This document shows, piece after piece, positions 9,547-29,723 of a DNA stretch of 64,000 bases. The stretch comes from Melioribacter sp. (GTDB taxonomy: Bacteria > Bacteroidota > Ignavibacteria > Ignavibacteriales > Melioribacteraceae), in NCBI GenBank assembly GCA_012026935.1, contig VEPI01000001.1, forward strand, positions 26,464-90,463, read 5' to 3'. A model generated the notes under the pieces. The model was not told the origin of the DNA. It ran no database searches and worked only from the letters and a program-made list of their open reading frames with translations. Every line of letters starts with the position of its first letter. The stretch's first letter is position 1. A program made the position numbers and the translations under genes.

Positions 9547-11355
9547 CTATTTTAACAATAACATTTTTTTTGTCTGAGAGAAACCATCCGTCTGTAATGT
9601 ATAGAAGTAAACTCCGCTTGGTAAAGATTCTGCATGCAGCGTTTTTACATATTGACCGGCATGCTGTTCTTCATTTACAAGAGTAGCAACCTCAGATCCG
9701 AGCAAATTAAAAACCTTTAATGAAACGAAACCGAAATTTGGAAGACTATAACTTATTGAAGTATCCGGATTAAACGGGTTTGGAAAATTTTGCTCGAGTC
9801 GGAATTCATTAGGAATATTTGTTCCAACTTTCACTTCAGAAGTAGTTAGTGATTCAATAATAATTCCATTGAGCAGTGGTCTTTCAATCTGTGCGGCAAA
9901 ATGAATATCTAGTATGTTGTCGTTCACTTCTACATTATCAATAATTTTTTCTAATGCTGACTTTGCACCAACTTCCTTAAAAATATCTAGCCTGTCAATA
10001 ACAAGATTACCTTGGACATAAACATCAAACACTCTTTTACCAATTGTGCTAAAATAATTTTCTGCGAACAATAGTTTGATTTTGTATTTACCATTTGGAA
10101 CACGCACAACGTATTTTGCTAATCCGTTAATTTCGGATTGGAAAATAGTATCGTCATTCGTGTTGGCTATCGGGTCAGAAACTGTTCCTTTTACACCTTC
10201 CATAAATCCATAATTAGAAGAGTCAGTTACAAACTCTTTATCGGCATAAAAATCCCCGTAAGCATTACCGCCGGCATTGATCTTAAACGGAAAATTTATT
10301 TTCGGAGTTACTATTATGGAGTGAGCAACCAGGTTTATAAAATTAGCAGGTGACCAAGTATCTTTAATATTTCTGACAATAAAATTGGGATTTGAATTGA
10401 GATCTACCTTATCAACTAAAATATCAACAGTTCGATTGTCTCTTAATAAAGTTGTATTTGTTATAACCGATCCGGTCAAAATATAATTTCCGTTTGTTTC
10501 CGCAGTTGTTCTTTCAATTTGTTCTGAGAAAAATGCTTTTAATTCATTATCAGCTACAACACGTGCAGAAATTATTTTGGGTGCTGAATTATCCGTATAA
10601 CCCAGCGCGTTTTTATCCGTTAGACATAGAATCAACTTGCCATTAACAAAAGCAATATTTTCAGGCACAAAGTCACTTCTATTTCCGCCAAACCCGTGAT
10701 TACCTTTTTCCCATCTCGTATCATCAAAGGTGTTGAAATCATCACGCCAATCAAGTGTAAAATTATTGTTTGTTCCATAATTACCCGCACCCGGCGAATA
10801 TTTGTAATAAGCCACCCAATCATAGTATCCAAATGCCGGAAGTACCGCCTCGTTCCAAACTCCGGCCCAATTAGAATTTGTAGGACTCCAAATGTTCATC
10901 ATTAATTTTTGTGCTCTGGTTATTGTGTTTATATGGTCTCCTGTCTGTCTGTAAACTTCAACTCCATCAATGAACCAAGCTACATATTGTGGTGTCCATT
11001 CAATTGTATAGGTATGATAATCCAAAGCGGGATCAAAATTCACAAATTGATGACGGACATGATTTGTCTGACTTAAAGTGATAGTATTGAATTGCACATC
11101 GTTGTTATAACGTCCCATGATTTCAATATCAATTTCATTCCATTTAGAGGATGACCATGGATCATTCGGAAGTCCGTCAAAATATGTAAATAACGAAGTA
11201 AGAACTCCTTCTTTGCCCGGAGCTTTGATACTCGCTTCAAATCTTCCGTAAAGGTAGGAATCTTTTGTTCTGTATTCTGCGCCTCTAACTTGTGCTAAAG
11301 AATAAATTTGAATGCACAGAATGAATACTGCTAAAAAAAAATTTTTATTTTTCAA
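9547..11355 (-). CDS. Secreted GH16 beta-glucanase with a malectin-like domain and T9SS C-terminal sorting domain
   Basis: 602 aa with a TTG start and a signal peptide. GH16 catalytic motif NEIDIEIMG. Malectin-like segment (LLFAENYF...GKRVFDVYVQG). CTD LEQNFPNPFNP...SGVYFYTL...KKMLLLK. Confidence 0.85.
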   Translation of the reverse strand: MKNKNFFLAVFILCIQIYSLAQVRGAEYRTKDSYLYGRFEASIKAPGKEGVLTSLFTYFDGLPNDPWSSSKWNEIDIEIMGRYNNDVQFNTITLSQTNHVRHQFVNFDPALDYHTYTIEWTPQYVAWFIDGVEVYRQTGDHINTITRAQKLMMNIWSPTNSNWAGVWNEAVLPAFGYYDWVAYYKYSPGAGNYGTNNNFTLDWRDDFNTFDDTRWEKGNHGFGGNRSDFVPENIAFVNGKLILCLTDKNALGYTDNSAPKIISARVVADNELKAFFSEQIERTTAETNGNYILTGSVITNTTLLRDNRTVDILVDKVDLNSNPNFIVRNIKDTWSPANFINLVAHSIIVTPKINFPFKINAGGNAYGDFYADKEFVTDSSNYGFMEGVKGTVSDPIANTNDDTIFQSEINGLAKYVVRVPNGKYKIKLLFAENYFSTIGKRVFDVYVQGNLVIDRLDIFKEVGAKSALEKIIDNVEVNDNILDIHFAAQIERPLLNGIIIESLTTSEVKVGTNIPNEFRLEQNFPNPFNPDTSISYSLPNFGFVSLKVFNLLGSEVATLVNEEQHAGQYVKTLHAESLPSGVYFYTLQTDGFSQTKKMLLLK

Positions 11356-11460: not shown

Positions 11461-11483
11461 GGGGTGAGTAAAATACTCACCCC
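11461..11483. other. Perfect 10-bp hairpin (GGGGTGAGTA-AAA-TACTCACCCC) in the spacer between the PorV-like gene and the GH16 gene
   Basis: The inverted repeat was read directly. There is no U-tract on the minus (coding) strand, so it may act as a terminator or an RNA-stability/processing element. Confidence 0.4.
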
Positions 11484-11551: not shown

Positions 11552-12601
11552 TTAGAAAGTTATTCCTACGGAAAATCTTTGAACATTATTTAATCTTCCG
11601 AAGTCTCCGTATGAATAATCAATTTTTATAGAAACGTTCCCGATAAACCTTTGTTGTACGCCGGCGCCAAATGTATACGACTCTTCCGATTCTTTTAAAA
11701 GGAGAGATTTATAACCGGCTCTAATAAAGAACATATCATTAAATGTATATTCACCGCCAACATTTAGACTCTCGTAATTATCACTCGGATGTAATGCGTC
11801 AACCGCAATTAAGAATTTATGCATCGAGCTATTAATAAGTTTATAAGACAGCCCGACTCTAAAAATCAACGGCAATTCCCATTCGTCAGTTTGTAAATAG
11901 GCGGGTATTCTATCATTATTTCCGGTTGAGTTTTTATCGGGATCGTAAAGTACAAGTGCGGAAGTTCCGTCCAATTTCATCTTTGTTCCAAAATTTGAGA
12001 TTGACATTGCAAGAACGATTCCATCAAATGGAGTTATATATTGAACGCCCATATCAATAGCGAATGCGGTTGCGTTTGTTCTCCAGATTTTTTGATTAAT
12101 AAATTTCGGATTGAAACCGATAGCAAAATTATCTGTAAGATTAATCGCATAAGCAATGCTGAACATTACATCAGAGACACCAAAAGTTTCACCTGTACCT
12201 TCCGGATCCTGAACTGTTCTTACAATCATATCTTCAATATTTGATGAAAGAAAACTTAAACCGAGTGTACCATAAGATCCAACATTATAAGATGCAGCAA
12301 CGTAGTTATAATTTATGCCTGCAATCCAGTTTACATGATCAAAAACAACAGCACCTCCGGGTATTTTTGCTAAACCGGCAGGGTTCCAATAAATTGCTGT
12401 AGGATCATCAGAAACCGCAACGTATGCACTGCCCATTCCCGAAGCTCTAGCACCTTGGTTTATTGAAAGGAATTGTGCAGCAGTAGTTCCTTTCTTTGAA
12501 ACATCCGAAACAAAGTTTTGTGCGGTGATAGTAGAAATATCTACTAAACTTATAGCCGCAATCAAAATCAGAAAAACTAAATTTATTATTCTTCTTTTCA
12601 T
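11552..12601 (-). CDS. PorV/PorQ-family (FadL-like) outer-membrane beta-barrel
   Basis: The track ORF is 11552..12613 and begins at GTG. The ATG at 12601 is preceded by GGAG. It has a signal peptide and an N-terminal signature GARASGMGSAYVAVSDDPTAIYWNPAGLA. The rest shows an alternating beta-strand pattern, and the protein ends in ...FSVGITF (terminal aromatic). Confidence 0.6.
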   Translation of the reverse strand: MKRRIINLVFLILIAAISLVDISTITAQNFVSDVSKKGTTAAQFLSINQGARASGMGSAYVAVSDDPTAIYWNPAGLAKIPGGAVVFDHVNWIAGINYNYVAASYNVGSYGTLGLSFLSSNIEDMIVRTVQDPEGTGETFGVSDVMFSIAYAINLTDNFAIGFNPKFINQKIWRTNATAFAIDMGVQYITPFDGIVLAMSISNFGTKMKLDGTSALVLYDPDKNSTGNNDRIPAYLQTDEWELPLIFRVGLSYKLINSSMHKFLIAVDALHPSDNYESLNVGGEYTFNDMFFIRAGYKSLLLKESEESYTFGAGVQQRFIGNVSIKIDYSYGDFGRLNNVQRFSVGITF

Positions 12602-12615
12602 ATCTCGCTCCACCG

Positions 12616-15600
12616 CTATTTGATTACAGCAAATTTGCCAATGTACTCGCCAATACCCGGCGCATCAACATGATAAATGTAAAGTCCGTATGCCAAATCC
12701 ATTCCGTCTTCTGTTATCAGATTCCATGATAAAGTACCATCCTCGGAACCTGATTCTTTTTGAAGTGTTTTTATCAAAGCACCTGTTACATTGTAAATTC
12801 TAATTGTACACCTCGTTGGCAGATGAATAAAATCCATTCGTCTTTCACCGCGTCCGGTTTGAATAAGATTTCTCTTTTCCCAAGCATTAGCACTTATGTA
12901 CGGATTCGGAACAGCAGCAATTCGGCTGAGAGAATTCTTTGCAAGATCTGCATCAACCTTTGCACCTTTAGTCGAGAATTGGAAATAATCACCTGTCTTG
13001 AAGGGTTTAGTGGTCACAATTCTAAAAACATTTCCCGGTCTTGGCGTAATATACACAGGTGCGGAGGGCTGCCTATACTGAATTCTCCATGTTAATCTAA
13101 ATTGATTTTGCTCATACTCAATAATTACAATGTCGTCACCCAAACTGAATTGTCCATCAGAATTATTATCAAAATATTCAGCTTGAACTTCTACTCCTCG
13201 TGAAATATTACGGACTTTAAACGGTACCGGTTTCTTAGTAAATGGAGTAGTTATTGTCTGACCTTCAGGCAGCCATTCAATTTCATAATCGGAAGGCCAA
13301 GCAACATTTCGTTGCGGAGAACTTTTATCAGGAGCTACAAACATATCAACATTACTAAAACCAACCACCCAGCCTTTTTGTTTAACAACACCAAGTGTAT
13401 CACCGATTACAGAAAAAATAAGTCCATCAAACGGAGTACTGAATTTTCCGACACCAATGTTAGAACTATCAACATTTGCAAAAATCACTTCTTCTGTTCC
13501 GTTCAATGTGCGGGTCAAAGAATATCCGGTAGTTTTATATTTTGGTACATCACCGCTTGCAGTAAAATTAATTTTATAAGTAGCGCCTTCTTTAACTTCA
13601 TTCGGATTTAGAACTATCATACTTACCTTACCGGAGCCAAGACCCTGCGTAACTTTTGTTAAATCACCTGTAATTTGAGGAGGAAGGTAACCAGCGGATG
13701 GAGAGTTCGGTGTAACAACAGCGCAATTGATATCAACAAATTTAATTTGACCTGAAAAATCCTGAGAAATTATTTTTGTTGTTTCACTCGGAATTAATCC
13801 TTTTGTACCATAAGCAGGATCTCCTTGATCATAAGCGACTAAAGCGTAATAATAAGTGCTTCCATTAGTAACGGTGGAATCAACGTATGAATGTTGAAGT
13901 CCTGTTTCATTTCCTCTCCAGAAATGAGCACCGTTTATTCCCACAGGATCAGGACCTTTAAGACCATCTTTCAAATCAAATTGAGCAATTGGTTTCCAAT
14001 ATTTTGGCTCACCTTTAGAATCTGTTATCAACTTAATATCATTAAACTCCGGCTCCTGACTTCTATAAAGTAGGTAACCCTCAAAATCTTTCTTTCTTAA
14101 AAATCTATCAAAAGATTTCTCGGCATAGTCATTCCAATAAAGAAATACTTTTTTATCTCCTGCTATAGCAGTCAAAGTCGGTTTTAAAGGAGGCTGAGAG
14201 AAATTATAATTTGCATTGTAGATTGATTGAACTGTCTCTTTATTAAAAACCATATCGTCATAATCAACACCAAATACCAACGCAACAGAAAATCTTTCAC
14301 GTTTATATAATTTTAGCGGAAACGGGCCTGAACCGAAAAGAATTTGAATGTTAGAATTTGTTAATGAAGTATCGAAACTATTATAATTCATTTTTCTCCA
14401 AATCACTTCATCATTCTTAGGCCAAATAGCATTTGGTCCCTTGTTAGATAATCTTTCGATAACCAAGCTTGTTAAACCGATCTGATCTGATTCATCTTTA
14501 TCGGTTCTATCAAAATTTGGTTCACCATCTGTTGGTAAGCCATCACCCTCACCTTCGTCAGGGCCATTGTACTGCGGATCATCCGGTCCAACACCATCTT
14601 TTCCAAGATCGTCGTTCAAAGGTTCTCCTGCATCCCAGTGTCCGTCATGGTTTAAATCCGTATATGGAACCCAGTTATGATTATCGTCAATACCATTATC
14701 ACGACTTTCATCAGTCATACCATCTTGATCGTTATCAATACCATCAGTTGAATTACCCGGACTTTCCAAAAATGCGTAACCAACGAAACCGGTCTTCCAA
14801 TTATCAGGCGGTGCAGCACCATCATGGTCGAATGCGTATGCAAGATCAAGTTTAGTATTGTAAGAAGCATCGTCATCGCCATTATCATTTAAACCGCCAA
14901 CACCTGTATCACAATAAAATCCAAAATAAGTTGTATCTAATGATACCTCGGATAAATTAACTATATCATAATGGAAAAAGATGATATCTTCTGCCAGTAC
15001 ATGCGACCATTGAAATCCACGCACTTCAGTTCTTAATCCCAATCCTCCCCGGTTATGATCTGAAGGAAGCGGATAATAAAAATAAGGCGGACGGGAAAAT
15101 TCTTTATCTTTTGAATCATCCATTGCATAAAAAACTTCAAGATCAGCATTCATAACACCGCGTCCAAAATATCCGAACCAATAACCATCCCAATTAGCAT
15201 TAACATTTGGAAGTGAACGGGGCCAATTTTCAGGCCATGATCGGGGTCTTGTACTCATTGCAGGTTGTTCTGATGCGGCTGCAGCATATCCCGGTATCGG
15301 TTCCATTACCCACAAATCTCCGGTAACAGGATCATAATCAACTTCTTCTCTATATGATGTTTCTGCAGGATGAACAAGTTGTCTATTACCAGGGGCAAAA
15401 ATTGCGGATGTTACAATTGGTGTACATCCATCCAAATACATGTGCCCGGTTCCTTTTGGCCATTCACCCGAAGGTCTATCCGGCCATGTACCCACTTGTC
15501 CATCATTCTGGAAAAGTGTTCTAACCAGGTTTCCATCCATTACAGCTTTTTTTCTATATGTCTTATCCCCGTACGGCTCCAAACGATATTTTAATATCTG

Positions 15601-15672
15601 TTCCTGTGTCTGAGCCCAAGTAGCATCGGCAATAACGAGGAAGGTAAGTAACCATAAAATTTTTCTTTTCAT
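12616..15672 (-). CDS. Large secreted protein of unknown function with an Asp-rich Ca-binding-type repeat region and a divergent T9SS-type C-terminal domain
   Basis: The track ORF is 12616..15684. The ATG at 15672 is preceded by GGAG. Signal peptide MKRKILWLLTFLVIADATWAQ. The DxDxDG-like run includes DGIDNDQDGMTDE, DLNHDGHWDAGE and DDLGKDGVGPDD. C-terminus: VPNPY...IRIYNVTGALI...YGLYIYHV...GKFAVIK. I recognised no catalytic motif. Confidence 0.65.
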   Translation of the reverse strand: MKRKILWLLTFLVIADATWAQTQEQILKYRLEPYGDKTYRKKAVMDGNLVRTLFQNDGQVGTWPDRPSGEWPKGTGHMYLDGCTPIVTSAIFAPGNRQLVHPAETSYREEVDYDPVTGDLWVMEPIPGYAAAASEQPAMSTRPRSWPENWPRSLPNVNANWDGYWFGYFGRGVMNADLEVFYAMDDSKDKEFSRPPYFYYPLPSDHNRGGLGLRTEVRGFQWSHVLAEDIIFFHYDIVNLSEVSLDTTYFGFYCDTGVGGLNDNGDDDASYNTKLDLAYAFDHDGAAPPDNWKTGFVGYAFLESPGNSTDGIDNDQDGMTDESRDNGIDDNHNWVPYTDLNHDGHWDAGEPLNDDLGKDGVGPDDPQYNGPDEGEGDGLPTDGEPNFDRTDKDESDQIGLTSLVIERLSNKGPNAIWPKNDEVIWRKMNYNSFDTSLTNSNIQILFGSGPFPLKLYKRERFSVALVFGVDYDDMVFNKETVQSIYNANYNFSQPPLKPTLTAIAGDKKVFLYWNDYAEKSFDRFLRKKDFEGYLLYRSQEPEFNDIKLITDSKGEPKYWKPIAQFDLKDGLKGPDPVGINGAHFWRGNETGLQHSYVDSTVTNGSTYYYALVAYDQGDPAYGTKGLIPSETTKIISQDFSGQIKFVDINCAVVTPNSPSAGYLPPQITGDLTKVTQGLGSGKVSMIVLNPNEVKEGATYKINFTASGDVPKYKTTGYSLTRTLNGTEEVIFANVDSSNIGVGKFSTPFDGLIFSVIGDTLGVVKQKGWVVGFSNVDMFVAPDKSSPQRNVAWPSDYEIEWLPEGQTITTPFTKKPVPFKVRNISRGVEVQAEYFDNNSDGQFSLGDDIVIIEYEQNQFRLTWRIQYRQPSAPVYITPRPGNVFRIVTTKPFKTGDYFQFSTKGAKVDADLAKNSLSRIAAVPNPYISANAWEKRNLIQTGRGERRMDFIHLPTRCTIRIYNVTGALIKTLQKESGSEDGTLSWNLITEDGMDLAYGLYIYHVDAPGIGEYIGKFAVIK

Positions 15673-15711
15673 TCTCAACTCCATTTTCTAAAAATATTTC
15701 TGTGTTCCGGA

Positions 15712-18423
15712 TTAGAAATTAACATTGAATCCAATGTTGATTCTTCTTGGAGATGAGTAGTCTCCTGGATTTCTTAAATATTGTTCAATAGTATTTCTTC
15801 CAATAATTGGAGCAGCAAATTTTGTATTCAAATCAATACCGGCTCTACCTGTAGTGCTGGATACGCCATATTCATTCTTTATGTCAAACAAGTTATAGAC
15901 AAGTAAGAATGCATTTACATCAAGACCGAATACCTTGAATTGTTTATTTGTTCTGAGATCAACATTTAATGTATTCGGTTTTCTTCCGCCGTTTTCAAAA
16001 CGTAATCCTTGTGAATAACGCGGGTCTTCAGTGTATGGTGCGCCTGAGCCGTAATTAAAAATTATTCCCGCTGTCCAATCCGATGGATCTCCAATTGTTA
16101 TTGAAGCATTAATAGTGTGTGTCTGATCCCAATCAAGCGGAACAACTTTTTTATTCGATTCAACCGGGGGATCGGCTTGATTATTATAAAATTCCACCAT
16201 CGGATCTGATGCATTACCCGAAGCAACTTGATAAGTATAATCTATTTTTGCACTGAAGAAATCGGCAAATCTTTTATCCAGCGTAATGATTACACCTTTA
16301 ACGTTTCCATAATCCCTATTTATAAATCTTGCAAATGTAAATCCTTCGTAGGTTTTAAGAATCTGCATACCGAGAAGATTTCGTATATCACTGTAATAAA
16401 GAGAAACATCAATAGAAACTTCAGGAAAGATTACCTGTTGTAATCCTAATTCATATTTAACTGTTTTTTGTGATTTCAATTCCGGATTTCCAACTGAAGA
16501 TGAAAGAGAAGTCGTCTGATCAATTAAGTAAGCGTAATTAGTGTATAAGTTTTCAAAACTTGGAATCTGGAAAAAATGTCCGTATGAAAAATGGATAGCT
16601 CCTTTTTCAGACATCGGAAATGAAACACCAAGCCGGGGACTAATTTGGTATTCAGATTGTGCATTTCTCTTTTGGAATGCATTAGGAAAGTTAGGATTGT
16701 TTAACGGGTTGCGAATATCAATTGGTAAATCTGTATTTGAACTAAAGAAATCAAATCTTACTCCGGCATTGATAATCATTATATCATATTCCATCTTATC
16801 TTGAATGTATGCCGATAGTTCGTATGGGTATCTCATATAACTTTGATTGTACTTAGTATTAGGATCACTATAACCCAAAGTAAAAATTGCATTACCCAAC
16901 GAATCTAATTGTCCTTCCGTCATGTTTCTAATTGTTTTCCAGCTGTTCCAAATTGTATGAAGTCTTGCTTCGGCACCAATCTTAATTTTATGTTCTTTCG
17001 TAATCTGTGATTCTAATGATAATTGCCCAATATAAGTTTGTGTATATCTATTATATCTATCAGTCTCGTTACCGCCTTGATTAAAAGTATAACCTGTAAT
17101 AGGTGAACCTTGATTTGGTTCAACGTAACGAGGATCGTATTCATCTTCATATAAATAGCCCCAGAACTTATGATAGTTCGATGAGAGCTTTAATGTTGCA
17201 AAAGTACTTTGAGAAGGTATCCATGAAACTTGAAAACTATGAATTGTATTTGTACGGTAATGATTTTTTATCGCATCCGGAGTCCATTTGTAAGCATGAC
17301 TATAATATTTATTCCAGTTATCATCCCAAAAAATACTATAGCTAAATTTCCACTGATTAAAATTATAAGTTAGTTTACCGTTAAAAGATTTTTTCTCATA
17401 AGGATTCATCGGTACAAAAGCGCTGTCTCCGGTACCATGATCAATCCAATAAGTTTGATTTCCAGCAATTGGAAAAGTTGGTCTATCGTCTGAAACATTA
17501 TAATATCTTTGTCCATACTCATAGCCATCATCGCGAAAATATCTGCCTGTTAAAAAGAAAGTTAAATTATCTAAAACTTGTGTCGGTCCGCTCAAAGTTA
17601 ATTGAAAATCTCTCGGACCATTCAGATTAGCTTTATTTACATTTTGAAAAATGTCTGTGTGAGTTGTAAAATAGTTCCCTACATAAGCCGATACTGAACC
17701 ATCGTATTTTGCACCGCCGTCTTTTGTAACAATATTAACAATTCCTGCCATCGCTTGACCGTACTCTGCATTAAATGTACCGCTGATAACTTCCATCTGT
17801 CGAATTGAAGAGTTTTCTACTTCAACGGACATACCACCGTTGAATACATCTGTAACAGTAACGCCATCAACTAAATAAGAAACTTCACCGGAACGTCCTC
17901 CTCTAAAATGCCCGTTAACAACACCGGCCTGGAGGTTAACTACTTGATTCAAATTTTCTACGGGCATCATTTTTAATTCTTCTGAAGAAACAATAGCTGT
18001 TGATGAAGTGAGATCTTTTGTAACGAGCGGCTGTTTGGCTTGAATAACAATTTCGCCAACATTAATTGTTGCAGGTGTAAGGTTTATATCAAGGCGTGTA
18101 GTTTGATCAATCCTAATTGAAATTTTTTGAACCGTAACTTTATGGTAACCTATAGAACTAACAACAACAGTATATGTCCCAGGTGAAATATTATTGATAT
18201 AATAATATCCGTCCAAATCTGCTACCGCACCTAAGTTGGTACCCTGTAAAAGAATTGTTGCACCAATCACTGGTTCTTTGACTTCAGAATCAATCACCTT
18301 GCCTGCTAGTTTTCCAGTCGTACCCGCATTAATAAATGAAGAAGCAAACAACAAAAAAATAAGACTCAGTTGTATTACCCTTCTCGACAACTTGATACTC
18401 TCCATTCTATTAATCCTGTACAT
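15712..18423 (-). CDS. TonB-dependent outer-membrane transporter with an N-terminal carboxypeptidase-regulatory-like domain
   Basis: 903 aa, with an alternative start ATG at 18405 preceded by AGGA. It has a CarboxypepD_reg-like segment (GKVIDSEVKEPVIGATILLQGTNLGAVADLDGYYYINNISPGTYTVVV). A plug region follows (VSSEELKMMPVENLNQVVNLQAGVV), then a long barrel ending in NIGFNVNF. Confidence 0.85.
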   Translation of the reverse strand: MYRINRMESIKLSRRVIQLSLIFLLFASSFINAGTTGKLAGKVIDSEVKEPVIGATILLQGTNLGAVADLDGYYYINNISPGTYTVVVSSIGYHKVTVQKISIRIDQTTRLDINLTPATINVGEIVIQAKQPLVTKDLTSSTAIVSSEELKMMPVENLNQVVNLQAGVVNGHFRGGRSGEVSYLVDGVTVTDVFNGGMSVEVENSSIRQMEVISGTFNAEYGQAMAGIVNIVTKDGGAKYDGSVSAYVGNYFTTHTDIFQNVNKANLNGPRDFQLTLSGPTQVLDNLTFFLTGRYFRDDGYEYGQRYYNVSDDRPTFPIAGNQTYWIDHGTGDSAFVPMNPYEKKSFNGKLTYNFNQWKFSYSIFWDDNWNKYYSHAYKWTPDAIKNHYRTNTIHSFQVSWIPSQSTFATLKLSSNYHKFWGYLYEDEYDPRYVEPNQGSPITGYTFNQGGNETDRYNRYTQTYIGQLSLESQITKEHKIKIGAEARLHTIWNSWKTIRNMTEGQLDSLGNAIFTLGYSDPNTKYNQSYMRYPYELSAYIQDKMEYDIMIINAGVRFDFFSSNTDLPIDIRNPLNNPNFPNAFQKRNAQSEYQISPRLGVSFPMSEKGAIHFSYGHFFQIPSFENLYTNYAYLIDQTTSLSSSVGNPELKSQKTVKYELGLQQVIFPEVSIDVSLYYSDIRNLLGMQILKTYEGFTFARFINRDYGNVKGVIITLDKRFADFFSAKIDYTYQVASGNASDPMVEFYNNQADPPVESNKKVVPLDWDQTHTINASITIGDPSDWTAGIIFNYGSGAPYTEDPRYSQGLRFENGGRKPNTLNVDLRTNKQFKVFGLDVNAFLLVYNLFDIKNEYGVSSTTGRAGIDLNTKFAAPIIGRNTIEQYLRNPGDYSSPRRINIGFNVNF

Positions 18424-18456: not shown

Positions 18457-18489
18457 CAAAAAAGGGCACTCCATATTCGGGAGTGCCCC
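18457..18489 (-). terminator. Rho-independent terminator after the 881-aa surface-protein gene
   Basis: The minus strand reads GGGGCACTCC-CGAATAT-GGAGTGCCCT followed by a T6 run, starting 14 nt after the stop at 18503. Confidence 0.8.
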
Positions 18490-18502
18490 TAAATTGATTT
18501 TA

Positions 18503-21148
18503 TTATTTGATCAACATCATCTTCTTAACACTAGTGAACGAACTACTTTCGATTCTGTAAATGTAAACACCAGATGCAAAACGGGTAGCATCGAAATTAA
18601 CAGTATATTTACCTGCTTCTTGATATTTATTTACTAAATCTGCAACCTGGCGACCAAGTATATCATAAATCTTTAATGTAACGAGACCCGGCTTAGCAAT
18701 TGTGTATTTAATTTGTGTAGCTGGGTTGAAAGGATTAGGATAGTTTTGATCTAATGAATATTGCAGCGGTAGTTCATCTTTTACATCTGTTACAATAACA
18801 TCGGAACTTCCGTACCATGAATACATCCAGGTATTTGGATATTGCCAACCGGCATCATTATCATATGGTGACCAGCCTAATTGACCTTCGCGGTTTCTCC
18901 ATAGTTCGGGAGAGTTTAATCCATCGTTATCACAAACCAACAACTGAAGCGGAATCTTAAATCCTTCATGTAGATAGAGTGTGTCTTGTGTGCCTGCTGG
19001 GGTTTTTCTTAATTTTATAATATCGGCTAATGCTAATCTTCCTTCAACCATATAACCAGACGGGAATTTTTCCTGCCAGTAATAATTTGTACCGGGCATT
19101 AACAACGAATCTTTTTCTGATTCCCAGTGATCACTTCTTGCTCTATCTTTATTAAATCTAAAATGGTAATCCGGAAAGTGACCATGTCTGTAAGAAGTAT
19201 GTTGTCTTGCTTCTTGATTGTATAAGCCGATTTCAATATCAACACAGTCAAGTGCCCAGCTTGAACCTTGACTCAAGTATGATATATTATTATAAACAAT
19301 ATCATCAGTAACATCGGCAGCGAAATACAAATAAGTTTTATCCATTGCCAAATAAATATTTGCAGAACAATCAGCATCATTAGAAATAGTAAATCCCGTC
19401 ATAATATGTCCTGATCCGTCAGATGGTTTTAACGTGAAAGGTGTAACACCGGCCCATTCCGTCAAATTACCATCAGCCGCCCAGCTTGGCGGTGTCATAT
19501 TGGGAATTGTAGGAATACCTTTCGCTGTATTACCAATTGCACCGGTAGCTGTTAATGCACCTAGGTTACCAGCTTTATCAATTGCTCTTACAGCATAATA
19601 ATAAAAATCAGTTCTATCCGTCTTGGGTGATCTTAAAAGATGTTCAAATACCTGTGTCCCTCTTGGAATACCTGCTGCGGCAACTTCAACTCCTGCTGCG
19701 CTGGTATTTGTAATTGGATTCTTGCTTACATAAACATAATATTTTTCTGTTGTTTCACCTGCAAGATCTGTCCATGTAATTAGATTTGAATAAGTACCTT
19801 TAACAAAATTTACTGATGGAGCTAATGGTGCTGTTATATCAAAAATTTGGAATCCTGATTGCTGCATTACACCAAAAAGCAAAGTTCCGGTCATCTTCTC
19901 ACCTTTAGGACCGGCATCCGGCCCAACACCAACACCTAGAACTTCAAATCTGATTTTGTTAACCTTATCAGGATTAAATGTTTGATCTCCTTTAGCCCCG
20001 TTTGGATTTAAACCAAATGCACCGATCGGAGGGTATTGATCTCCATTAGTACTATAAGCTGTTTGCTTAAGCGGTAATGTGTACCGGGTCCAATCAGATG
20101 TCTGTGTTAAATTAATAGGAACTTTTGTAATCCATTGTTCCCCATCATCTTCAAAGAGAAAAATTCTTACTATAGCTCTTGCAGGTACACTAGTTGTAAC
20201 CGCAGTTTTATTTTTGAGAAAGATTGTTAAAGCAGTTCTTTCAAGAAATTTTGCCGGAGCTGTTACCGGAAGATCAAATGCAACAAAGCCGCCCCAATCT
20301 TGAGAGGCATTGCATGTATAATCAAATTTCAATGAACCGGTTGTACCTTCAACGTTATCCGTAGCTTCATTTGATAAAGCAACGGAACCTTTATCAGTTG
20401 CACCGGCCCAGCCCATATCGTCAACACCAAATTGTGAAGCCATGTTAACAAACGAAACATATGGTGGCGGATAGTGATCGCCGGTTATTGCAAAACCGTC
20501 CAATAAAACTGTTCCTGAAGCCGTGGGTGTATTGGGGTTATTTCCACCGGTTGTTGGAACATAAACTACGGCCCACTCAAATCCGTTTACATGGTCCCAA
20601 GCCATTTCTCTATCACCATCCTGTGCTTGGTAAGTCCAAGAAATAGTTTTATCGGTGCCCATTGTAAAATCAACTGTTACTTGTTTCCATGTTCCGGATG
20701 CATCCGAGAGATCTACCGGAACTTCGCGAAATACACGGTTTTCATGTCCGTCAAGTATATCGCATATTTTGAATTCCATTACCATTGCACCGGGAGACGA
20801 AAAAACTGCCGGCTTAGTTACTTTGTACCAGAAAGTTATTGCAGTACCGGTGGATAAATCCAAAACCGTGGAAAGGGGTTTAACGGATGTACGAACAACA
20901 TAACCACCCCAGCTGTCTCCAGCACCAACAGTGTAATCGAGCTCGAGGCAACCGGTACCTTCTTTTTGTCCGGTGGTTACATCTTTAACATCCCATTTAG
21001 CTGTAGCATCACCCTGGTTGTTATATAGATTGGCCATATCCCAGAAACCGCTTGCAACCGAATTATCAAACGGCTGGAACACATACTTTTGCGCGTATGA
21101 TGACCCAACGATGAATAGAAATAGTGCGAGTGTTAGAAGTTTTTGCAT
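18503..21148 (-). CDS. Non-catalytic multi-domain surface protein: two CBM/galactose-binding-like modules, Fn3-like, CBM9/DOMON-like, T9SS CTD
   Basis: 881 aa with an AAGGAG-type SD and a signal peptide. Internal duplication: EGTGCLELDYTVGAGDSWGGYVV versus EGTTGSLKFDYTCNASQDWGGFVAF. An Fn3-like segment is present (YYYAVRAIDKAGN). CTD LDQNYPNPFNP...SGVYIYRI...KKMMLIK. I recognised no glycosidase motif. Confidence 0.55.
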   Translation of the reverse strand: MQKLLTLALFLFIVGSSYAQKYVFQPFDNSVASGFWDMANLYNNQGDATAKWDVKDVTTGQKEGTGCLELDYTVGAGDSWGGYVVRTSVKPLSTVLDLSTGTAITFWYKVTKPAVFSSPGAMVMEFKICDILDGHENRVFREVPVDLSDASGTWKQVTVDFTMGTDKTISWTYQAQDGDREMAWDHVNGFEWAVVYVPTTGGNNPNTPTASGTVLLDGFAITGDHYPPPYVSFVNMASQFGVDDMGWAGATDKGSVALSNEATDNVEGTTGSLKFDYTCNASQDWGGFVAFDLPVTAPAKFLERTALTIFLKNKTAVTTSVPARAIVRIFLFEDDGEQWITKVPINLTQTSDWTRYTLPLKQTAYSTNGDQYPPIGAFGLNPNGAKGDQTFNPDKVNKIRFEVLGVGVGPDAGPKGEKMTGTLLFGVMQQSGFQIFDITAPLAPSVNFVKGTYSNLITWTDLAGETTEKYYVYVSKNPITNTSAAGVEVAAAGIPRGTQVFEHLLRSPKTDRTDFYYYAVRAIDKAGNLGALTATGAIGNTAKGIPTIPNMTPPSWAADGNLTEWAGVTPFTLKPSDGSGHIMTGFTISNDADCSANIYLAMDKTYLYFAADVTDDIVYNNISYLSQGSSWALDCVDIEIGLYNQEARQHTSYRHGHFPDYHFRFNKDRARSDHWESEKDSLLMPGTNYYWQEKFPSGYMVEGRLALADIIKLRKTPAGTQDTLYLHEGFKIPLQLLVCDNDGLNSPELWRNREGQLGWSPYDNDAGWQYPNTWMYSWYGSSDVIVTDVKDELPLQYSLDQNYPNPFNPATQIKYTIAKPGLVTLKIYDILGRQVADLVNKYQEAGKYTVNFDATRFASGVYIYRIESSSFTSVKKMMLIK

Positions 21149-22966: not shown

Positions 22967-24019
22967 CTATTTTATCAACATTAGTTTTCTGCTTTGATAA
23001 AAAGAACCTGAGGAAAGTGAATAAATATAAACTCCAGATGAAAGTTTTGAAGCATCAAATTGAACAGAAAAATTTCCTTCCTGGTGGTATTTGTTTACAA
23101 GCTGTGTTACTTCCTTGCCTAATAAATCAAAAACTTTTATTGAAACATTTCCGGCATCTGCTATAGAGTATTTAATGATCGTAAGTGGATTGAAAGGATT
23201 GGGATAGTTTTGTTCCAAAGAAAAATTATTAATTTGTTGTGTTTTCTCTACATTAGTCGGAGTTGTTTGATAAACTCTTACGTAATCAACAAACATTGAA
23301 TCCGGCATTGGTGTTGTGCTGTCAGGATTACCAGGCCAATTACCCCCAACAGCTAAATTTAAGATGATAAAAAAAGGCTGATGAAAAGCGCCGGTATTCG
23401 AGACTCCATTTGTAATATTAACAGACCAATATTTACTTCCGTCAACAAACCAATTTATAGATTGTGGGTTCCACTCAATAGAATAAACATGAAAATTTTG
23501 TACACCAACACCCCAATAATTTCCGCCGGATGAGACGTGACCGTTGTTATCCCAATGCATTGTACCGTATATGATAGAACTGGTATTAATATGTTCCATT
23601 ATATCAATCTCACCGCATTTTGGCCAACTAACTTGTGTTATATTATTCCCTAACATCCAAAATGCCGGCCACAAACCTTTTCCGGATGGAAGTTTAATAT
23701 TAGCTTCTATTTTTCCATACGTAAAACTTTTTAACCCTTGAGTTTTTAATCGTGCAGATGTATAATTATTTGAACCATAAGATTCCTTTCTTGCAATGAT
23801 CAGTAAATTTCCGTTGACAACTTTGGCATTTTCGGTTCTATTGGTGTAATACTCTAATTCATTATTACCCCATCCATGCCCGCCGATATCATAAGTCCAA
23901 TTAGAGGTATTAATGTTAGTGGAGTTAAATTCATCCGACCAAATTAATTGATAGTTTTGTGCTAACGATACAGAAGTAAATAACACAGTTCCAAAAAGGA
24001 GAGATATTGTTTTATTCAT
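22967..24019 (-). CDS. Secreted GH16 laminarinase-type beta-glucanase with T9SS CTD
   Basis: 350 aa. Motifs: WSDEFN and the catalytic motif GEIDIMEH. CTD LEQNYPNPFNP...SGVYIYSL...RKLMLIK. Confidence 0.9.
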   Translation of the reverse strand: MNKTISLLFGTVLFTSVSLAQNYQLIWSDEFNSTNINTSNWTYDIGGHGWGNNELEYYTNRTENAKVVNGNLLIIARKESYGSNNYTSARLKTQGLKSFTYGKIEANIKLPSGKGLWPAFWMLGNNITQVSWPKCGEIDIMEHINTSSIIYGTMHWDNNGHVSSGGNYWGVGVQNFHVYSIEWNPQSINWFVDGSKYWSVNITNGVSNTGAFHQPFFIILNLAVGGNWPGNPDSTTPMPDSMFVDYVRVYQTTPTNVEKTQQINNFSLEQNYPNPFNPLTIIKYSIADAGNVSIKVFDLLGKEVTQLVNKYHQEGNFSVQFDASKLSSGVYIYSLSSGSFYQSRKLMLIK

Positions 24020-26755: not shown

Positions 26756-28234
26756 TTATTTTAATCCAAGCTCTTTGCACATTCTATAATAGTTTGGCGG
26801 TGCTAAGCCAAGTTTTTTAGCGGCTTCAGAATCCGATTCCGATTGCATGCGGATATATTTGAAATATTTTTCCCGGAAAATCTTTTCCATATGTTTCAAC
26901 GCTTGAATTCCTTCCGGCGATTTGAAGCTTAAGATGTCGTTGGCAAAATAATTTTCGCTAAGAGATGCTCTCTTACCTAATGCTGTTTGGATTAATTGAG
27001 GAGTAATGATTTTTTCATCGTAGAAAAGTAATCGCTGTATTAAATTTTTTAATTCGCGTACATTACCCGGCCACCCATAATCTACTAAGAGTTTAATCGC
27101 TTCTTCATTAATCACAGGCATCTCTTTTCCCATATCAATCGAAAACTCATTCAAGAAATAATCAATTAGATAATGTATATCTTCTTTTCTTTCGCGTAAT
27201 GGTGGAACGTGAATTGGTACAACATTCAATCTGTAAAATAGATCTTCACGGAATTTCTTTTCACGAACCTCATCTTCAAGGTTCCTGTTCGTTGCTGAAA
27301 TTACTCGTACATCAACTTTAATTTTTTCGGTACGGCCGATTTTTTCAACTTCTCCATCTTGAAGTACGCGCAGAAGTTTTACTTGAGCAGTAAGAGGAAG
27401 TTCGGAAATTTCATCAAGAAAAATTGTACCGTGATGTGCCATCTCAAATAATCCGGGTTTACTTTTTTCAGCACCCGTAAACGCCCCTTTCTCATAACCG
27501 AACAATTCACTTTCAATAAGTTGATCCGGAATTCCGCCGCAATTGATCGGAATAAAATTTTCAAACTTGCGCGGACTGTTATAATTATAGTGAATATTGT
27601 ATGCAACTAATTCTTTGCCGGTTCCGGATGAACCTGTAATAAGGATTGGCGCATTACTGTTGGCGTATTTCGAAATTTCTTCACGCATCTTTTTTATTGT
27701 TGAAGAAACACCAACTATTTTTTTATTAGCCAGAACATTTTCAACGTTTCTATTCAGTTTCTGATTAGATTTTTGTTTCTCTTTAATAAGTTTCTTTCTC
27801 TCAAAAGCATTTATAATGCTCATGATAAAATCTGTCGGTTGATAAATGTATTGTTCAATATCTCCCGGATACTTGGTACAGTACCAAAACGCACCGGCTT
27901 CTATTAAGTTGTGTGCAAAATCATAATCTGTGATGTTGACAGTCATCTTGGTTATAACAATTATTTGAATTGCTAAATCGAAATCCTTAATTTTTTTTAT
28001 GAGCTGCGCACCCCGTAAACCTCCAGCAATCTGAAAGTCCATAATCACTACGTCATAAAAATTCCTTTTCTTGTCCAACAGGTCAATTGCGGAACGTCCG
28101 TCTGAAACCACATCTACTATTTTAATTCTATTTTCGAATGGTTTAATTGTATTTTCAACTCGACGTACATCAAAATCTTCGTCTTCAATCAGTAAAACTT
28201 TTATTTGTTCTTCTAACATTATTCTCCTCTCCAA
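26756..28234 (-). CDS. Sigma54-dependent response regulator (REC - AAA+ - Fis-type HTH; NtrC family)
   Basis: 492 aa. The REC domain has the acidic pocket LLIEDED. Walker A GSSGTGKE, sigma54-contact loop GAFTGA, ESELFGYEKGAFTGA, and a C-terminal HTH (AAKKLGLAPPNYYRMCKELGL). Confidence 0.9.
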   Translation of the reverse strand: MERRIMLEEQIKVLLIEDEDFDVRRVENTIKPFENRIKIVDVVSDGRSAIDLLDKKRNFYDVVIMDFQIAGGLRGAQLIKKIKDFDLAIQIIVITKMTVNITDYDFAHNLIEAGAFWYCTKYPGDIEQYIYQPTDFIMSIINAFERKKLIKEKQKSNQKLNRNVENVLANKKIVGVSSTIKKMREEISKYANSNAPILITGSSGTGKELVAYNIHYNYNSPRKFENFIPINCGGIPDQLIESELFGYEKGAFTGAEKSKPGLFEMAHHGTIFLDEISELPLTAQVKLLRVLQDGEVEKIGRTEKIKVDVRVISATNRNLEDEVREKKFREDLFYRLNVVPIHVPPLRERKEDIHYLIDYFLNEFSIDMGKEMPVINEEAIKLLVDYGWPGNVRELKNLIQRLLFYDEKIITPQLIQTALGKRASLSENYFANDILSFKSPEGIQALKHMEKIFREKYFKYIRMQSESDSEAAKKLGLAPPNYYRMCKELGLK

Positions 28235-28240
28235 TTAGAA

Positions 28241-29716: not shown

Positions 29717-29723
29717 AATGAAA

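What the first reader, a model, noticed from the sequence alone, without database searches (positions are those of the whole stretch)
11552..18423. Operon of TonB-dependent transporter + large CTD-bearing protein + dedicated PorV-like barrel: a possible SusD-independent glycan capture and import module
Seen in the sequence: three co-directional genes with gaps of 27-39 nt and 14 nt. GGAG precedes both downstream ATGs. A terminator lies just upstream (18457-18489) and hairpins lie downstream, so the three genes look like a self-contained transcription unit inside the glucan locus. Gene 1 is a 903-aa TonB-dependent transporter (CarboxypepD_reg-like domain, plug, barrel). Gene 2 is a ~1018-aa secreted protein with no recognisable catalytic motif, a ~135-aa Asp-rich Ca-binding-type region and a divergent T9SS-like tail. 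Gene 3 is a ~349-aa beta-barrel whose N-terminus (ARASGMGSAYVAVSDDPTAIYWNPAGLA) resembles PorV/PorQ-family FadL-like proteins. Established knowledge: PorV binds the CTDs of T9SS cargo and shuttles them, and SusC-type transporters normally work with a SusD lid. Inference: a private PorV paralogue could tether the CTD protein next to the transporter. That would give a three-part outer-membrane machine in which the large protein plays the SusD/SGBP role. I do not know of a characterised example, but that is a statement about my knowledge, not a database result.
Basis: partly seen in the sequence, partly recalled or inferred. Interest (0 to 1): 0.8.

Follow-up and report, generated by a model that had tools for sequence, protein, structure and literature searches.

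The report
Transporter, surface protein, PorV-like anchor module
Three tightly linked genes (an outer-membrane TonB-dependent transporter, a 1,000-residue protein of unknown family with a secretion-tail-like end, and a private PorV-like barrel) form a module that recurs in many copies across several SusD-poor bacterial phyla, mostly beside sugar-degrading enzymes, and looks like an undescribed nutrient-capture machine.

Summary
Three co-directional genes on the minus strand sit 27-39 nt and 2-14 nt apart, with a strong terminator upstream and a hairpin downstream. They encode a TonB-dependent transporter (TBDT; NTE + plug + barrel), a 1018/1022-aa protein with no Pfam domain, and a PorV/PorQ-family barrel (NF033709, 223 bits, cut-off 90).

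The trio is not peculiar to this genome. It is intact in every one of 80 GTDB loci whose contig reaches the flanking genes. It is also intact in 8 of 8 distant relatives examined and in about 45 of 47 testable metagenome loci. These span Ignavibacteriota, Kryptoniota, Calditrichota, Marinimicrobia and Balneolales.

The three proteins co-diverge. Triads occur in tandem on single contigs. They sit beside different enzyme sets (GH16/GH3 here; GH13/CBM20/CBM48, GH43, GH99 and others elsewhere), many carrying T9SS tails, and no SusD was seen.

The middle protein has a confident β-supersandwich N-domain, an Asp-rich loop region, an FN3-like domain, a variable β-sandwich region and a divergent CTD-like tail.

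Best reading: a T9SS-delivered surface receptor is held by its own carrier barrel next to its transporter, as a functional analogue of SusC/SusD. The physical complex, retention of the tail and ligand binding are untested. I found no description of this module in ten literature searches.

The parts
15712..18423 (-). Gene 1: TonB-dependent transporter, 903 aa. Signal peptide; CarboxypepD_reg-like N-terminal extension (aa 39-127, nt 18043-18309); TonB-box-like GEIVIQA; plug (aa 136-227, nt 17743-18018); barrel ending in Phe.
   Evidence: Pfam PF13715, PF07715 and PF00593. TIGR04056 SusC/RagA scores only 61.8 bits against 368. A family profile hits PhuR, Cir, FepA and a SusC homologue (8aa4_A) at similar distances. 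C-terminal Phe. The TonB box was read by eye.
12616..15684 (-). Gene 2: 1022-aa secreted protein of an uncharacterised family (probable start ATG 15672, 1018 aa). Sec signal peptide without a lipobox.
   Evidence: No Pfam or NCBIfam family apart from a weak PorU C-terminal hit, E = 0.0017. More than 4,438 homologues, all named 'hypothetical'. 4,399 50%-identity clusters at E <= 1e-3. No sequence match in the PDB.
14185..15606 (-). Gene 2 N-terminal domain (aa 27-500): beta-supersandwich interrupted by the Asp-rich loops. This is the family-wide conserved core.
   Evidence: AF2 with a diverse alignment gives pLDDT 90.8 and pTM 0.88. Foldseek matches the N-terminal supersandwich domains of GH94, GH149 and GH116 enzymes and YidC P1 (prob 1.0, TMq about 0.35-0.38).
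14476..14766 (-). Gene 2 Asp-rich, probably Ca-binding loop region (aa 307-403).
   Evidence: 24% Asp; DxDxDG motifs at 317 and 343. Many invariant D/G/E positions across the family. pLDDT 80-91 with almost no secondary structure. Ca binding is inferred.
13720..14184 (-). Gene 2 FN3-like domain (aa 501-655), highly conserved (DFEGY, YYYAxxAYD motifs).
   Evidence: Secondary structure in the AF2 model. FN3-chain Foldseek hits. Mean ortholog identity 0.75.
12925..13719 (-). Gene 2 variable beta-sandwich region (aa 656-920), a candidate substrate-specific part. In longer relatives extra beta-propeller repeats (Reg_prop) or a BNR-type segment are present instead or in addition.
   Evidence: Lowest ortholog identity, 0.47. 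pLDDT 80-90. Reg_prop or BNR in long relatives.
12619..12924 (-). Gene 2 C-terminal CTD-like beta-sandwich (aa 921-1022): PNPY motif, a roughly 20-aa insert, and a KFAVIK end.
   Evidence: hhalign against the neighbours' canonical CTDs: P = 1.4e-4, prob 53%. Weak PorU-tail hit. PorZ (5m11) and PorU (6za2) at Foldseek ranks 8-9. Weak FlgD_ig hits in homologues. UniRef names homologue P0246 a Por sorting-domain protein. Mean ortholog identity 0.70, and 0.82 for the last 50 aa.
11552..12613 (-). Gene 3: PorV/PorQ-family outer-membrane beta-barrel, 353 aa (probable start ATG 12601, 349 aa), ending in Phe.
   Evidence: NF033709 at 223 bits against 90. Below the equivalog cut-offs for PorV, PorQ and PorV2. 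Pfam PorV 29.1 bits against 27. PDB 6h3i_F PorV, E = 3e-6.
18462..18490 (-). Intrinsic-terminator-like hairpin ending the upstream CBM9/CTD gene, just before gene 1.
   Evidence: 11-bp stem, 7 GC pairs, T-run.
11461..11483 (.). GC-rich hairpin downstream of gene 3.
   Evidence: 10-bp stem. The T-tail is on the + strand only, so termination of the minus-strand transcript is uncertain.

Best explanation
The three genes encode one outer-membrane nutrient-capture and import module.

Proposed mechanism:
1. [quoted passage not shown]
2. Gene 3, a private PorV-family 'carrier' barrel, takes that domain at the translocon and keeps it. This holds gene 2 permanently on the cell surface, as PorV holds PorU, PorQ holds PorZ and SprF-type barrels hold type-B cargo.
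3. The carrier-bound protein sits next to the gene 1 transporter.
4. The conserved N-terminal supersandwich, Ca-loop and FN3 part of gene 2 is the scaffold or interface. The variable beta-sandwich part (or beta-propeller in relatives) binds the substrate, here beta-glucan oligosaccharides released by the neighbouring T9SS-displayed GH16 enzymes.
5. Gene 2 hands the substrate to the TonB-energised barrel. Import into the cytoplasm then follows through the SSF and MFS permeases of the locus.

Functionally this is an analogue of SusC/SusD (or SusC plus a surface glycan-binding protein) for FCB lineages that display surface proteins through T9SS rather than as lipoproteins.

Shown here: gene content, domain families, near-universal linkage, co-divergence, multiplicity, and CAZyme/T9SS-cargo neighbourhoods.

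Inferred: T9SS export of gene 2, retention of its tail on gene 3, contact with gene 1, ligand binding, and the direction of transport.
For: Linkage. The order TBDT, big protein, PorV-like is kept in 80/80 GTDB loci where the contig allows. It is also kept in 8/8 distant relatives at 33-40% identity. In a separate metagenome sample, TBDT lies upstream in 55/59 loci, PorV-like downstream in 61/65, and both in 42/47. Most exceptions are permutations or offsets.

Co-divergence. Across distant triads gene 1 is 32-38% identical, gene 2 33-40% and gene 3 37-47%.

Multiplicity. Two tandem triads occur in L086. A second triad starts in L087, L081 and L088. The family has 4,399 50%-identity clusters.

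Context. No SusD occurs in the window or in the annotated distant loci. Of 136 flanking ORFs, 45 carry canonical Por_Secre_tail, and many are CAZymes or CBMs (GH13, CBM20, CBM48, GH43, GH94, GH9, CBM9). LacI regulators and SSF permeases also recur.

Gene 3. It passes the PorV/PorQ family model. Cognate PorV-like barrels are known to bind and retain CTDs (PMC10202324, PMC10994853).

Gene 2 tail. It is CTD-like and is among the most conserved parts of the protein.

Gene 2 N-domain. It has a carbohydrate-enzyme-type supersandwich fold without any catalytic domain. Relatives carry Reg_prop propellers.

Conservation. The triad proteins are more conserved (0.61-0.62) than the CAZymes beside them (0.38-0.48).

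Background. susCD genes are reported as scarce in the CAZyme clusters of Ignavibacteriales (PMC10576277).
Against: - There is no direct evidence of a complex, of surface location, of ligand binding or of co-transcription.
- The tail of gene 2 does not reach the curated T9SS CTD models, and the hhalign probability is only 53%.
- The supersandwich fold match is modest (TMq about 0.36). In the matched enzymes that domain is not itself a proven glycan-binding module.
- Gene 1 is not in the SusC family.
- Some triads lie beside non-glycan genes: GDPD, GDSL lipase and G3P dehydrogenase in L082, and beta-lactamase-family and OPT genes elsewhere.
- The metagenome sample is biased towards relatives of one query.
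- The full-length AF2 model is of moderate quality (pLDDT 66.5).
Confidence: 0.55

Rival explanations
1. Genes 2 and 3 are this lineage's housekeeping T9SS attachment pair, a PorU-PorV or PorZ-PorQ equivalent that processes or anchors all CTD cargo. The transporter gene is merely adjacent.
For: porU-porV adjacency in Bacteroidota (own knowledge). A weak PorU-tail hit. PorZ and PorU appear among the Foldseek hits. Gene 3 is in the PorV/PorQ family. Some relatives carry Reg_prop propellers, as PorZ does.
Against: The PorU model scores 16 bits against a cut-off of 420, and no peptidase domain is present. Gene 3 is below the PorV and PorQ equivalog cut-offs. Several paralogous triads occur per contig. 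The TBDT is linked in about 95% of loci and co-diverges with the other two genes. The family has thousands of diverged clusters, which does not fit a single-copy core component.
Confidence: 0.05
2. Gene 2 is a new surface enzyme (glycanase, lyase or other hydrolase) rather than a binding or lid subunit. The barrel anchors it, and the transporter takes up its products.
For: The N-domain fold is shared with the N-domains of GH94, GH149 and GH116 enzymes. Family-wide invariant acidic and aromatic residues occur (D, E, R, W in the NADxE...DD and RGFQW motifs). In Bacteroides utilisomes, surface enzymes are part of the complex (own knowledge).
Against: No catalytic (alpha/alpha)6 or TIM domain is present. 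The same conserved core sits beside beta-glucan, alpha-glucan, GH43 and GH99/sulfatase loci, which argues against one catalytic specificity. Dedicated GHs are already encoded next to it.
Confidence: 0.15
3. The linkage is real, but the module works outwards or structurally. In one version the NTE-bearing TBDT acts as an Oar-like exporter. In another the three proteins build a surface layer or adhesin, and nutrient import is not the function.
For: The M. xanthus Oar TBDT with a CarboxypepD_reg N-domain is needed for PopC secretion (own knowledge). Gene 2 is a long chain of beta-sandwich domains like adhesins and S-layer proteins. FG-GAP/CTD proteins often flank triads.
Against: Neighbourhoods are dominated by CAZymes, CBMs, sugar permeases, sugar kinases and LacI-type regulators. 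The plug and a TonB-box-like motif are present. Many substrate-linked paralogues per genome fit uptake specificity better than one structural layer.
Confidence: 0.07
4. Gene 3 acts as a FadL-type channel or co-barrel, with no CTD binding. Gene 2 reaches or stays at the surface by other means. The module still imports nutrients.
For: Weak Toluene_X (FadL) and UPF0164 hits for gene 3 and its relatives. A FadL-like barrel (BamG) is tightly bound to another barrel and to a surface protein in Bacteroidota BAM (PMC12578637). One triad lies in a lipid-type context.
Against: The PorV/PorQ family model is passed by a wide margin, while FadL is below its cut-off. The CTD-like, highly conserved tail of gene 2 always co-occurs with the barrel.
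Confidence: 0.13

Closest known systems
SusC/SusD core of Bacteroidota polysaccharide utilisation loci
   Same: A TBDT with a CarboxypepD_reg-type N-terminal extension is encoded directly next to a dedicated surface partner. The pair occurs in many diverged paralogous copies per genome, each beside a different CAZyme set and its own regulator.
   Different: No SusD-like (TPR) protein is present. The partner is a roughly 1,000-aa all-beta protein with a Sec signal, no lipobox and a CTD-like tail. A third gene, a PorV-like barrel, is obligatory. The TBDT fails the SusC/RagA model (61.8 against 368 bits). Surface enzymes in these loci are T9SS cargo, not lipoproteins.
T9SS attachment-complex pairs PorU-PorV and PorZ-PorQ (P. 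gingivalis)
   Same: A large multi-domain surface protein keeps its C-terminal domain and is held by a PorV-family 14-strand barrel, and the genes can be adjacent. PorZ and PorU appear among the structural matches of gene 2.
   Different: Gene 2 has no peptidase domain and no PorZ-type twin propeller. Gene 3 is below the PorV and PorQ equivalog cut-offs. The pair is multi-copy, substrate-locus-linked and always joined to a TBDT.
Type-B CTD cargo with cognate PorP/SprF-family carrier barrels (e.g. SprB-SprF, PG1035-PorP)
   Same: A dedicated carrier barrel is encoded next to its own cargo, and the carrier stays on as the surface anchor (PMC10202324, PMC10994853).
   Different: The barrel here is of the PorV/PorQ family, not PorP/SprF. 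The tail resembles type A (PNPY..., ...K end) with an insert. Known examples are adhesins, not transporter partners.
BamA-BamG-BamH of the Bacteroidota BAM complex
   Same: A FadL/PorV-like 14-strand barrel is tightly associated with a larger barrel and binds a surface-exposed protein through its extracellular loops (PMC12578637). This shows that such a three-part geometry exists.
   Different: The function differs (OMP assembly), the surface partner is a lipoprotein, and no T9SS tail or TBDT is involved.
Bipartite TBDT receptors with a surface co-receptor (TbpA/TbpB, HmuR/HmuY; own knowledge)
   Same: A TonB-dependent barrel and a separately encoded surface protein that captures the ligand, encoded in one operon.
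   Different: Those co-receptors are lipoproteins. There is no carrier barrel, and the ligands are iron or haem.

Membership tests
PorV/PorQ family (NCBIfam NF033709) - gene 3 | Whole-protein score above the curated cut-off of the family model | tested here: met
   223 bits against a cut-off of 90, covering model positions 1-326. Pfam PorV scores 29.1 against 27.
PorV proper (NF033710), PorQ (NF033711), PorV2 (NF052325) equivalogs - gene 3 | Score above the equivalog cut-off | tested here: not met
   69.4 against 250, 91.7 against 220, and 81.5 against 325. Gene 3 is a distinct branch of the family.
PorV-type carrier function - gene 3 | Binds the CTD of cargo through extracellular loops at the SprA translocon | not testable with these tools
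   Needs multimer modelling, cross-linking or cryo-EM. Only gene linkage with a CTD-like protein is shown.
T9SS type-A CTD (TIGR04183 / PF18962) - tail of gene 2 | Match to the curated CTD models | tested here: not met
   No hit at E <= 0.01, whereas four neighbouring genes hit at 34-46 bits.
T9SS CTD-like fold - tail of gene 2 | C-terminal 7-strand beta-sandwich with conserved CTD motifs | tested here: inconclusive
   hhalign P = 1.4e-4, prob 53%, 48 columns. PNPY motif and K-terminal end by eye. Beta-strands at 949-1020, pLDDT about 80-88. PorU-tail hit E = 0.0017. FlgD_ig weak hits in homologues.
TonB-dependent transporter superfamily - gene 1 | Plug domain plus 22-strand-type barrel domain | tested here: met
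   PF07715 at 30.3 against 23.9, and PF00593 at 80.6 against 27. The family profile hits PhuR, Cir, FepA and a SusC homologue.
SusC/RagA family (TIGR04056) - gene 1 | Score above the curated cut-off | tested here: not met
   61.8 bits against 368.25, with only model positions 2-483 aligned. It shares the NTE domain with SusC.
SusD/RagB family - gene 2 or any neighbour | SusD-like domain next to the TBDT | tested here: not met
   There is no SusD Pfam hit in 35 window proteins or in the Pfam lists of loci L081-L088.
PorU sortase (NF033707) - gene 2 | Full-length match including the C25-type peptidase domain | tested here: not met
   16.1 bits against 420, tail only.
Operon / single complex | Co-transcription and physical association of the three products | not testable with these tools
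   Only spacing, Shine-Dalgarno motifs, flanking hairpins and conserved linkage are available.

The most novel reading that the evidence does not exclude
This is the type example of a widespread, undescribed 'T9SS-built utilisome'. In Ignavibacteriota, Calditrichota, Marinimicrobia, Kryptoniota and Balneolales, the substrate-capturing subunit of TonB-dependent importers is a type IX secretion cargo that is never released from its private PorV-family carrier. T9SS carrier barrels would thus have been co-opted as permanent structural subunits of nutrient transporters. The gene 2 family, with thousands of diverged clusters, would be the specificity-determining counterpart of SusD.
Probability: 0.4. 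Interest if true: 0.9.

Novelty: new variant of a known kind. Interest (0 to 1): 0.78.

Why it matters
How FCB-group bacteria outside the Bacteroidia capture and import polysaccharides is an open question. These include abundant sediment, subsurface, hot-spring, wastewater and ocean lineages. Their CAZyme clusters largely lack susCD (PMC10576277), so PUL predictors keyed on SusC/SusD miss them.

A conserved, multi-copy three-gene cassette next to their CAZymes would have four uses:
- It gives a marker for finding and counting such loci.
- It assigns a role to a very large family of 'hypothetical' 1,000-aa proteins.
- It links type IX secretion mechanistically to TonB-dependent uptake.
- It extends the known jobs of PorV-family barrels from shuttle to permanent subunit.

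The hypothesis is directly testable in cultured carriers: Melioribacter roseus, Rosettibacter, Ignavibacterium album and Natronogracilivirga saccharolytica.

Tried and rejected
- Sequence searches for gene 2. Pfam and NCBIfam on gene 2 and on 13 diverse relatives found no informative family. The exceptions were Reg_prop or BNR in long variants and weak FlgD_ig at the tail. A profile search of gene 2 against PDB sequences found nothing meaningful.
- Full-length structure. The AF2 model built from 30 close homologues was only moderate (pLDDT 66.5). Its Foldseek hits were generic FN3/Ig chains with TM below 0.1, useful only for the PorZ/PorU hint.
- Paralogues in the window. A search found none.
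- Promoters. The sigma-70 scan gave no more hits than shuffled sequence. By eye I found no convincing Bacteroidetes-type -33/-7 promoter between the terminator and gene 1, so the transcription start is unknown.
- RNA elements. The Rfam and tRNA scans of the window were empty.
- Literature. Ten searches found no description of the triad. One of them was badly set and wasted.
- CTD conservation argument. The idea that the gene 2 CTD is unusually conserved relative to canonical CTDs gave a mixed result. It holds against the GH16 protein's CTD (0.41), but the CBM9 protein's CTD is also well conserved (0.62).
- Housekeeping PorU/PorV reading. Considered and rejected, for the reasons given under the rival explanations.

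Full report
**1. What is in the window**

The window has about 36% G+C. Its closest relatives are uncultured Melioribacter and Ignavibacteriota MAGs; gene 2 is 86-88% identical to loci L001-L004.

On the minus strand, 15712-18423, 12616-15684 and 11552-12613 are three co-directional ORFs of 903, 1022 and 353 aa. If the ATG codons preceded by GGAG are used (15672 and 12601), the products are 1018 and 349 aa and the gaps are 39 and 14 nt. With the first possible starts the gaps are 27 and 2 nt.

An 11-bp, 7-GC stem with a T-run (18490-18462, minus strand) ends the upstream gene. A 10-bp hairpin at 11461-11483 follows gene 3, but its T-tail is on the + strand only. The claim of a self-contained transcript rests on spacing and hairpins alone.

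**2. The three proteins**

- **Gene 1** has a signal peptide, a CarboxypepD_reg-type N-terminal extension, a plug and a TonB-dependent barrel, and ends in Phe. It is a genuine TBDT but not a SusC/RagA family member: TIGR04056 scores 61.8 bits against a cut-off of 368. A profile of the triad-type TBDTs lies about as far from PhuR, Cir and FepA as from a SusC homologue.
- **Gene 3** passes the PorV/PorQ family model NF033709 (223 bits against 90). It is below the equivalog cut-offs for PorV, PorQ and PorV2.
- **Gene 2** has a Sec signal without a lipobox, no Pfam or NCBIfam family and no sequence relative in the PDB.

**3. Anatomy of gene 2**

An AF2 model of residues 27-500, built with a diverse alignment, is confident (pLDDT 90.8, pTM 0.88). 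Its best structural matches are the N-terminal beta-supersandwich domains of GH94, GH149 and GH116 enzymes and the YidC P1 domain (prob 1.0, TMq about 0.35-0.38). No catalytic domain follows it.

Inserted in this domain is a loop region (aa 307-403) with 24% Asp and DxDxDG motifs. Its D/G/E positions are invariant across the whole family. Ca binding is inferred, not shown.

An FN3-like domain (501-655) and two well-modelled beta-sandwiches (656-920) come next.

The last 100 residues form a beta-sandwich that begins with VPNPY and ends with KFAVIK. This part fails TIGR04183 and PF18962. It aligns with the canonical CTDs of the four neighbouring genes at hhalign P = 1.4e-4, prob 53%. It weakly hits the PorU tail. 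PorZ and PorU appear among the full-length Foldseek hits. UniRef names one homologue a Por sorting-domain protein.

Among orthologues, the 656-920 segment is the most variable (0.47 identity to the window protein). The Asp-rich region (0.74), the FN3 domain (0.75) and the tail (0.70; 0.82 for the last 50 aa) are the most conserved. In longer relatives extra Reg_prop beta-propeller repeats or a BNR-type segment are present.

**4. The locus around the triad**

- Upstream lie a CBM9 protein with a canonical CTD, an SSF permease, GH16-CTD, GH2-CTD, a sigma-54 response regulator, a histidine kinase, a solute-binding protein, a SurA-like PPIase and another GH16.
- Downstream lie GH16-malectin-CTD, an MFS permease, a ROK kinase, two GH3, an esterase and GH5.

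This is a beta-glucan utilisation locus whose surface enzymes are T9SS cargo. No SusD-like protein is encoded anywhere in the window.

**5. Is the trio more than a local accident?**

Gene 2 has more than 4,438 homologues, all unnamed. An exhaustive search of 50%-identity representatives gives 4,399 clusters at E <= 1e-3 and 654 at 1e-30.

- **GTDB species genomes.** At least 596 loci encode a relative. In the 80 best, the order TBDT, big protein, PorV-like is kept wherever the contig reaches. These loci are the orthologous beta-glucan locus: the CBM9-CTD, SSF, GH16 and GH3 genes are also kept. They include a Kryptoniota MAG (L061) and Calditrichaceae MAGs (L064, L076).
- **Distant relatives (33-40% identity).** They show the same trio in other settings.
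  - A Marinimicrobia-type contig (L081).
  - Next to G3P dehydrogenase, GDPD and a GDSL lipase (L082).
  - Next to an FG-GAP/CTD protein (L083).
  - With CBM9-CTD, GH99, a sulfatase and SSF (L084).
  - Two complete triads in tandem (L086).
  - A triad, a PPIase, an FG-GAP/CTD protein and the start of a second triad (L087).
  - In a Natronogracilivirga-type contig (Balneolales): a PPIase, the triad, a CTD protein, LacI and a GH13-CBM48-CTD amylase (L088).
- **Co-divergence.** Across these loci gene 1 is 32-38%, gene 2 33-40% and gene 3 37-47% identical to the window proteins.
- **Independent metagenome sample.** The sample was seeded with distant members. A triad-type TBDT lies directly upstream in 55/59 testable loci, a PorV-like barrel directly downstream in 61/65, and both in 42/47. 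The exceptions are mostly a permuted order (TBDT, PorV, big protein in L123 and L128) or offsets.
- **Neighbouring genes.** Of 136 same-strand ORFs within 3.5 kb of these triads, 45 carry a canonical Por_Secre_tail and 16 are SurA-like PPIases. Eleven are LacI regulators. Many are starch-type CBMs or amylases, GH43, GH94, GH9, glucoamylase, CBM9, SSF or ROK. A minority are beta-lactamase-family, GDSL lipase or OPT genes. This sample is biased towards relatives of one Calditrichota query.

**6. Most likely mechanism**

Established knowledge:
- T9SS cargo is recognised at the SprA translocon by a cognate carrier barrel and leaves with it (PMC10994853).
- Cognate PorV-like barrels keep uncleaved CTDs and so anchor PorU (on PorV), PorZ (on PorQ) and type-B cargo (on PorP/SprF proteins). 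Cargo and carrier genes are usually adjacent (PMC10202324).
- A FadL/PorV-like barrel can also be a fixed partner of a larger barrel and of a surface protein (BamG with BamA and BamH; PMC12578637).

On this basis the best reading is as follows. Gene 3 is the private carrier and anchor of gene 2, and the pair is stationed at the gene 1 transporter. The conserved N-terminal part of gene 2 serves as scaffold or interface. The variable C-terminal sandwiches, or propellers in relatives, bind the substrate released by the T9SS-displayed enzymes of the same locus. TonB-driven import follows.

This is what SusC/SusD does, built from different parts. It suits lineages that display surface proteins through T9SS rather than as lipoproteins.

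Only the genomic facts are shown. Export route, tail retention, contacts, ligand and direction of transport are inferred. I put the whole chain at about 0.55. The bare statement that the three genes form a conserved, co-inherited functional module is above 0.95.

**7. Rivals**

- A housekeeping PorU/PorV or PorZ/PorQ pair is unlikely. The reasons are a PorU model score of 16 against 420 bits, no peptidase domain, multi-copy tandem triads, and TBDT linkage and co-divergence.
- A new surface enzyme remains possible (0.15), given family-wide invariant acidic and aromatic residues and a fold shared with GH N-domains. Against it, there is no catalytic domain, and the same conserved core sits beside loci for different glycans.
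- An outward-acting (Oar-like) or purely structural role fits the neighbourhoods poorly.
- Gene 3 could act as a FadL-type co-barrel without binding the tail (0.13).

**8. Comparison with what is known, and novelty**

Gene 3 is a member of the PorV/PorQ family but of none of its named equivalogs. Gene 1 is a TBDT with a SusC-type N-terminal extension but is not in the SusC family. Gene 2 belongs to no described family.

The combination of a TBDT, a CTD-like protein and a private PorV-family barrel as a repeated cassette was not found in ten full-text searches. The hits included T9SS reviews, genome papers on Melioribacter and Caldithrix, and a 2026 review of glycoside transporters that mentions neither PorV nor T9SS. 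Subscription-only literature was not searched.

I class it as a new variant of a known kind: a TBDT with a surface co-receptor, combined with a carrier-anchored T9SS protein.

**9. Verdict**

The tail's identity as a T9SS signal is probable but not established. The complex and its function need experiments.

Noticed in passing
window 31062-32900 (-); also L084 939-2738, L085 20940-22805, L087 14230-15897, L088 5342-7069: A SurA-like PPIase (Rotamase + SurA_N) recurs right next to triads. It accounts for 16 of 136 flanking ORFs in the metagenome sample, and cluster c12 appears in several GTDB loci. It may be a dedicated periplasmic chaperone, a fourth component of the module.
   Followed up: partly
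window 26756-31052 (-): A sigma-54-dependent response regulator, a histidine kinase and a periplasmic solute-binding protein lie upstream of the beta-glucan locus and are a candidate oligosaccharide sensor. In other lineages LacI- or GntR-type regulators flank the triads instead.
   Followed up: no
L086 7329-23341; L087 7295-23087; L081 10088-12319; L088 22897-23945: Triads occur in tandem. L086 has two complete ones, and a second triad-type TBDT begins directly after the first triad in three other contigs.
   Followed up: partly
L123 1932-9633; L128 2-6833: A permuted gene order (TBDT, PorV-like, big protein) shows that the trio is kept even when the order changes.
   Followed up: partly
P0137, P0139, P0151, P0165 (1358-1592 aa); P0217: Longer family members carry Reg_prop beta-propeller repeats, the repeat type I recall (own knowledge, not checked here) from glycan-sensing hybrid two-component systems and from PorZ. 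Another carries a BNR-type segment.
   Followed up: partly
L082 7272-22143: One triad sits beside glycerol-3-phosphate dehydrogenase, a glycerophosphodiester phosphodiesterase and a GDSL lipase rather than CAZymes. Five beta-lactamase-family genes and an OPT transporter also flank triads elsewhere. Some triads may serve non-glycan substrates.
   Followed up: no
L065 (JBLNAZ010000143.1): A 7-kb contig binned as 'Syntrophomonadaceae' (a Gram-positive family) carries the full triad at 53-59% identity. This is probably a mis-binned contig.
   Followed up: no
window 11461-11483: The hairpin after gene 3 has its T-run on the + strand although no + strand gene runs into it. It may be a stabiliser or a weak, atypical terminator for the minus strand.
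   Followed up: no
window 9547-11355, 18503-21148, 22967-24019, 24038-26395 (-): All four secreted CAZyme/CBM proteins around the triad carry canonical type-A CTDs that are 43-56% identical to each other. BLAST finds no similarity between them and the tail of gene 2. The cell therefore has two distinct tail classes in one locus.
   Followed up: partly
window 37792-59162: The right half of the window is amino-acid biosynthesis: a thr operon on the + strand, glutamate synthase, and leu/ilv genes on the minus strand. It is unrelated to the finding.
   Followed up: no
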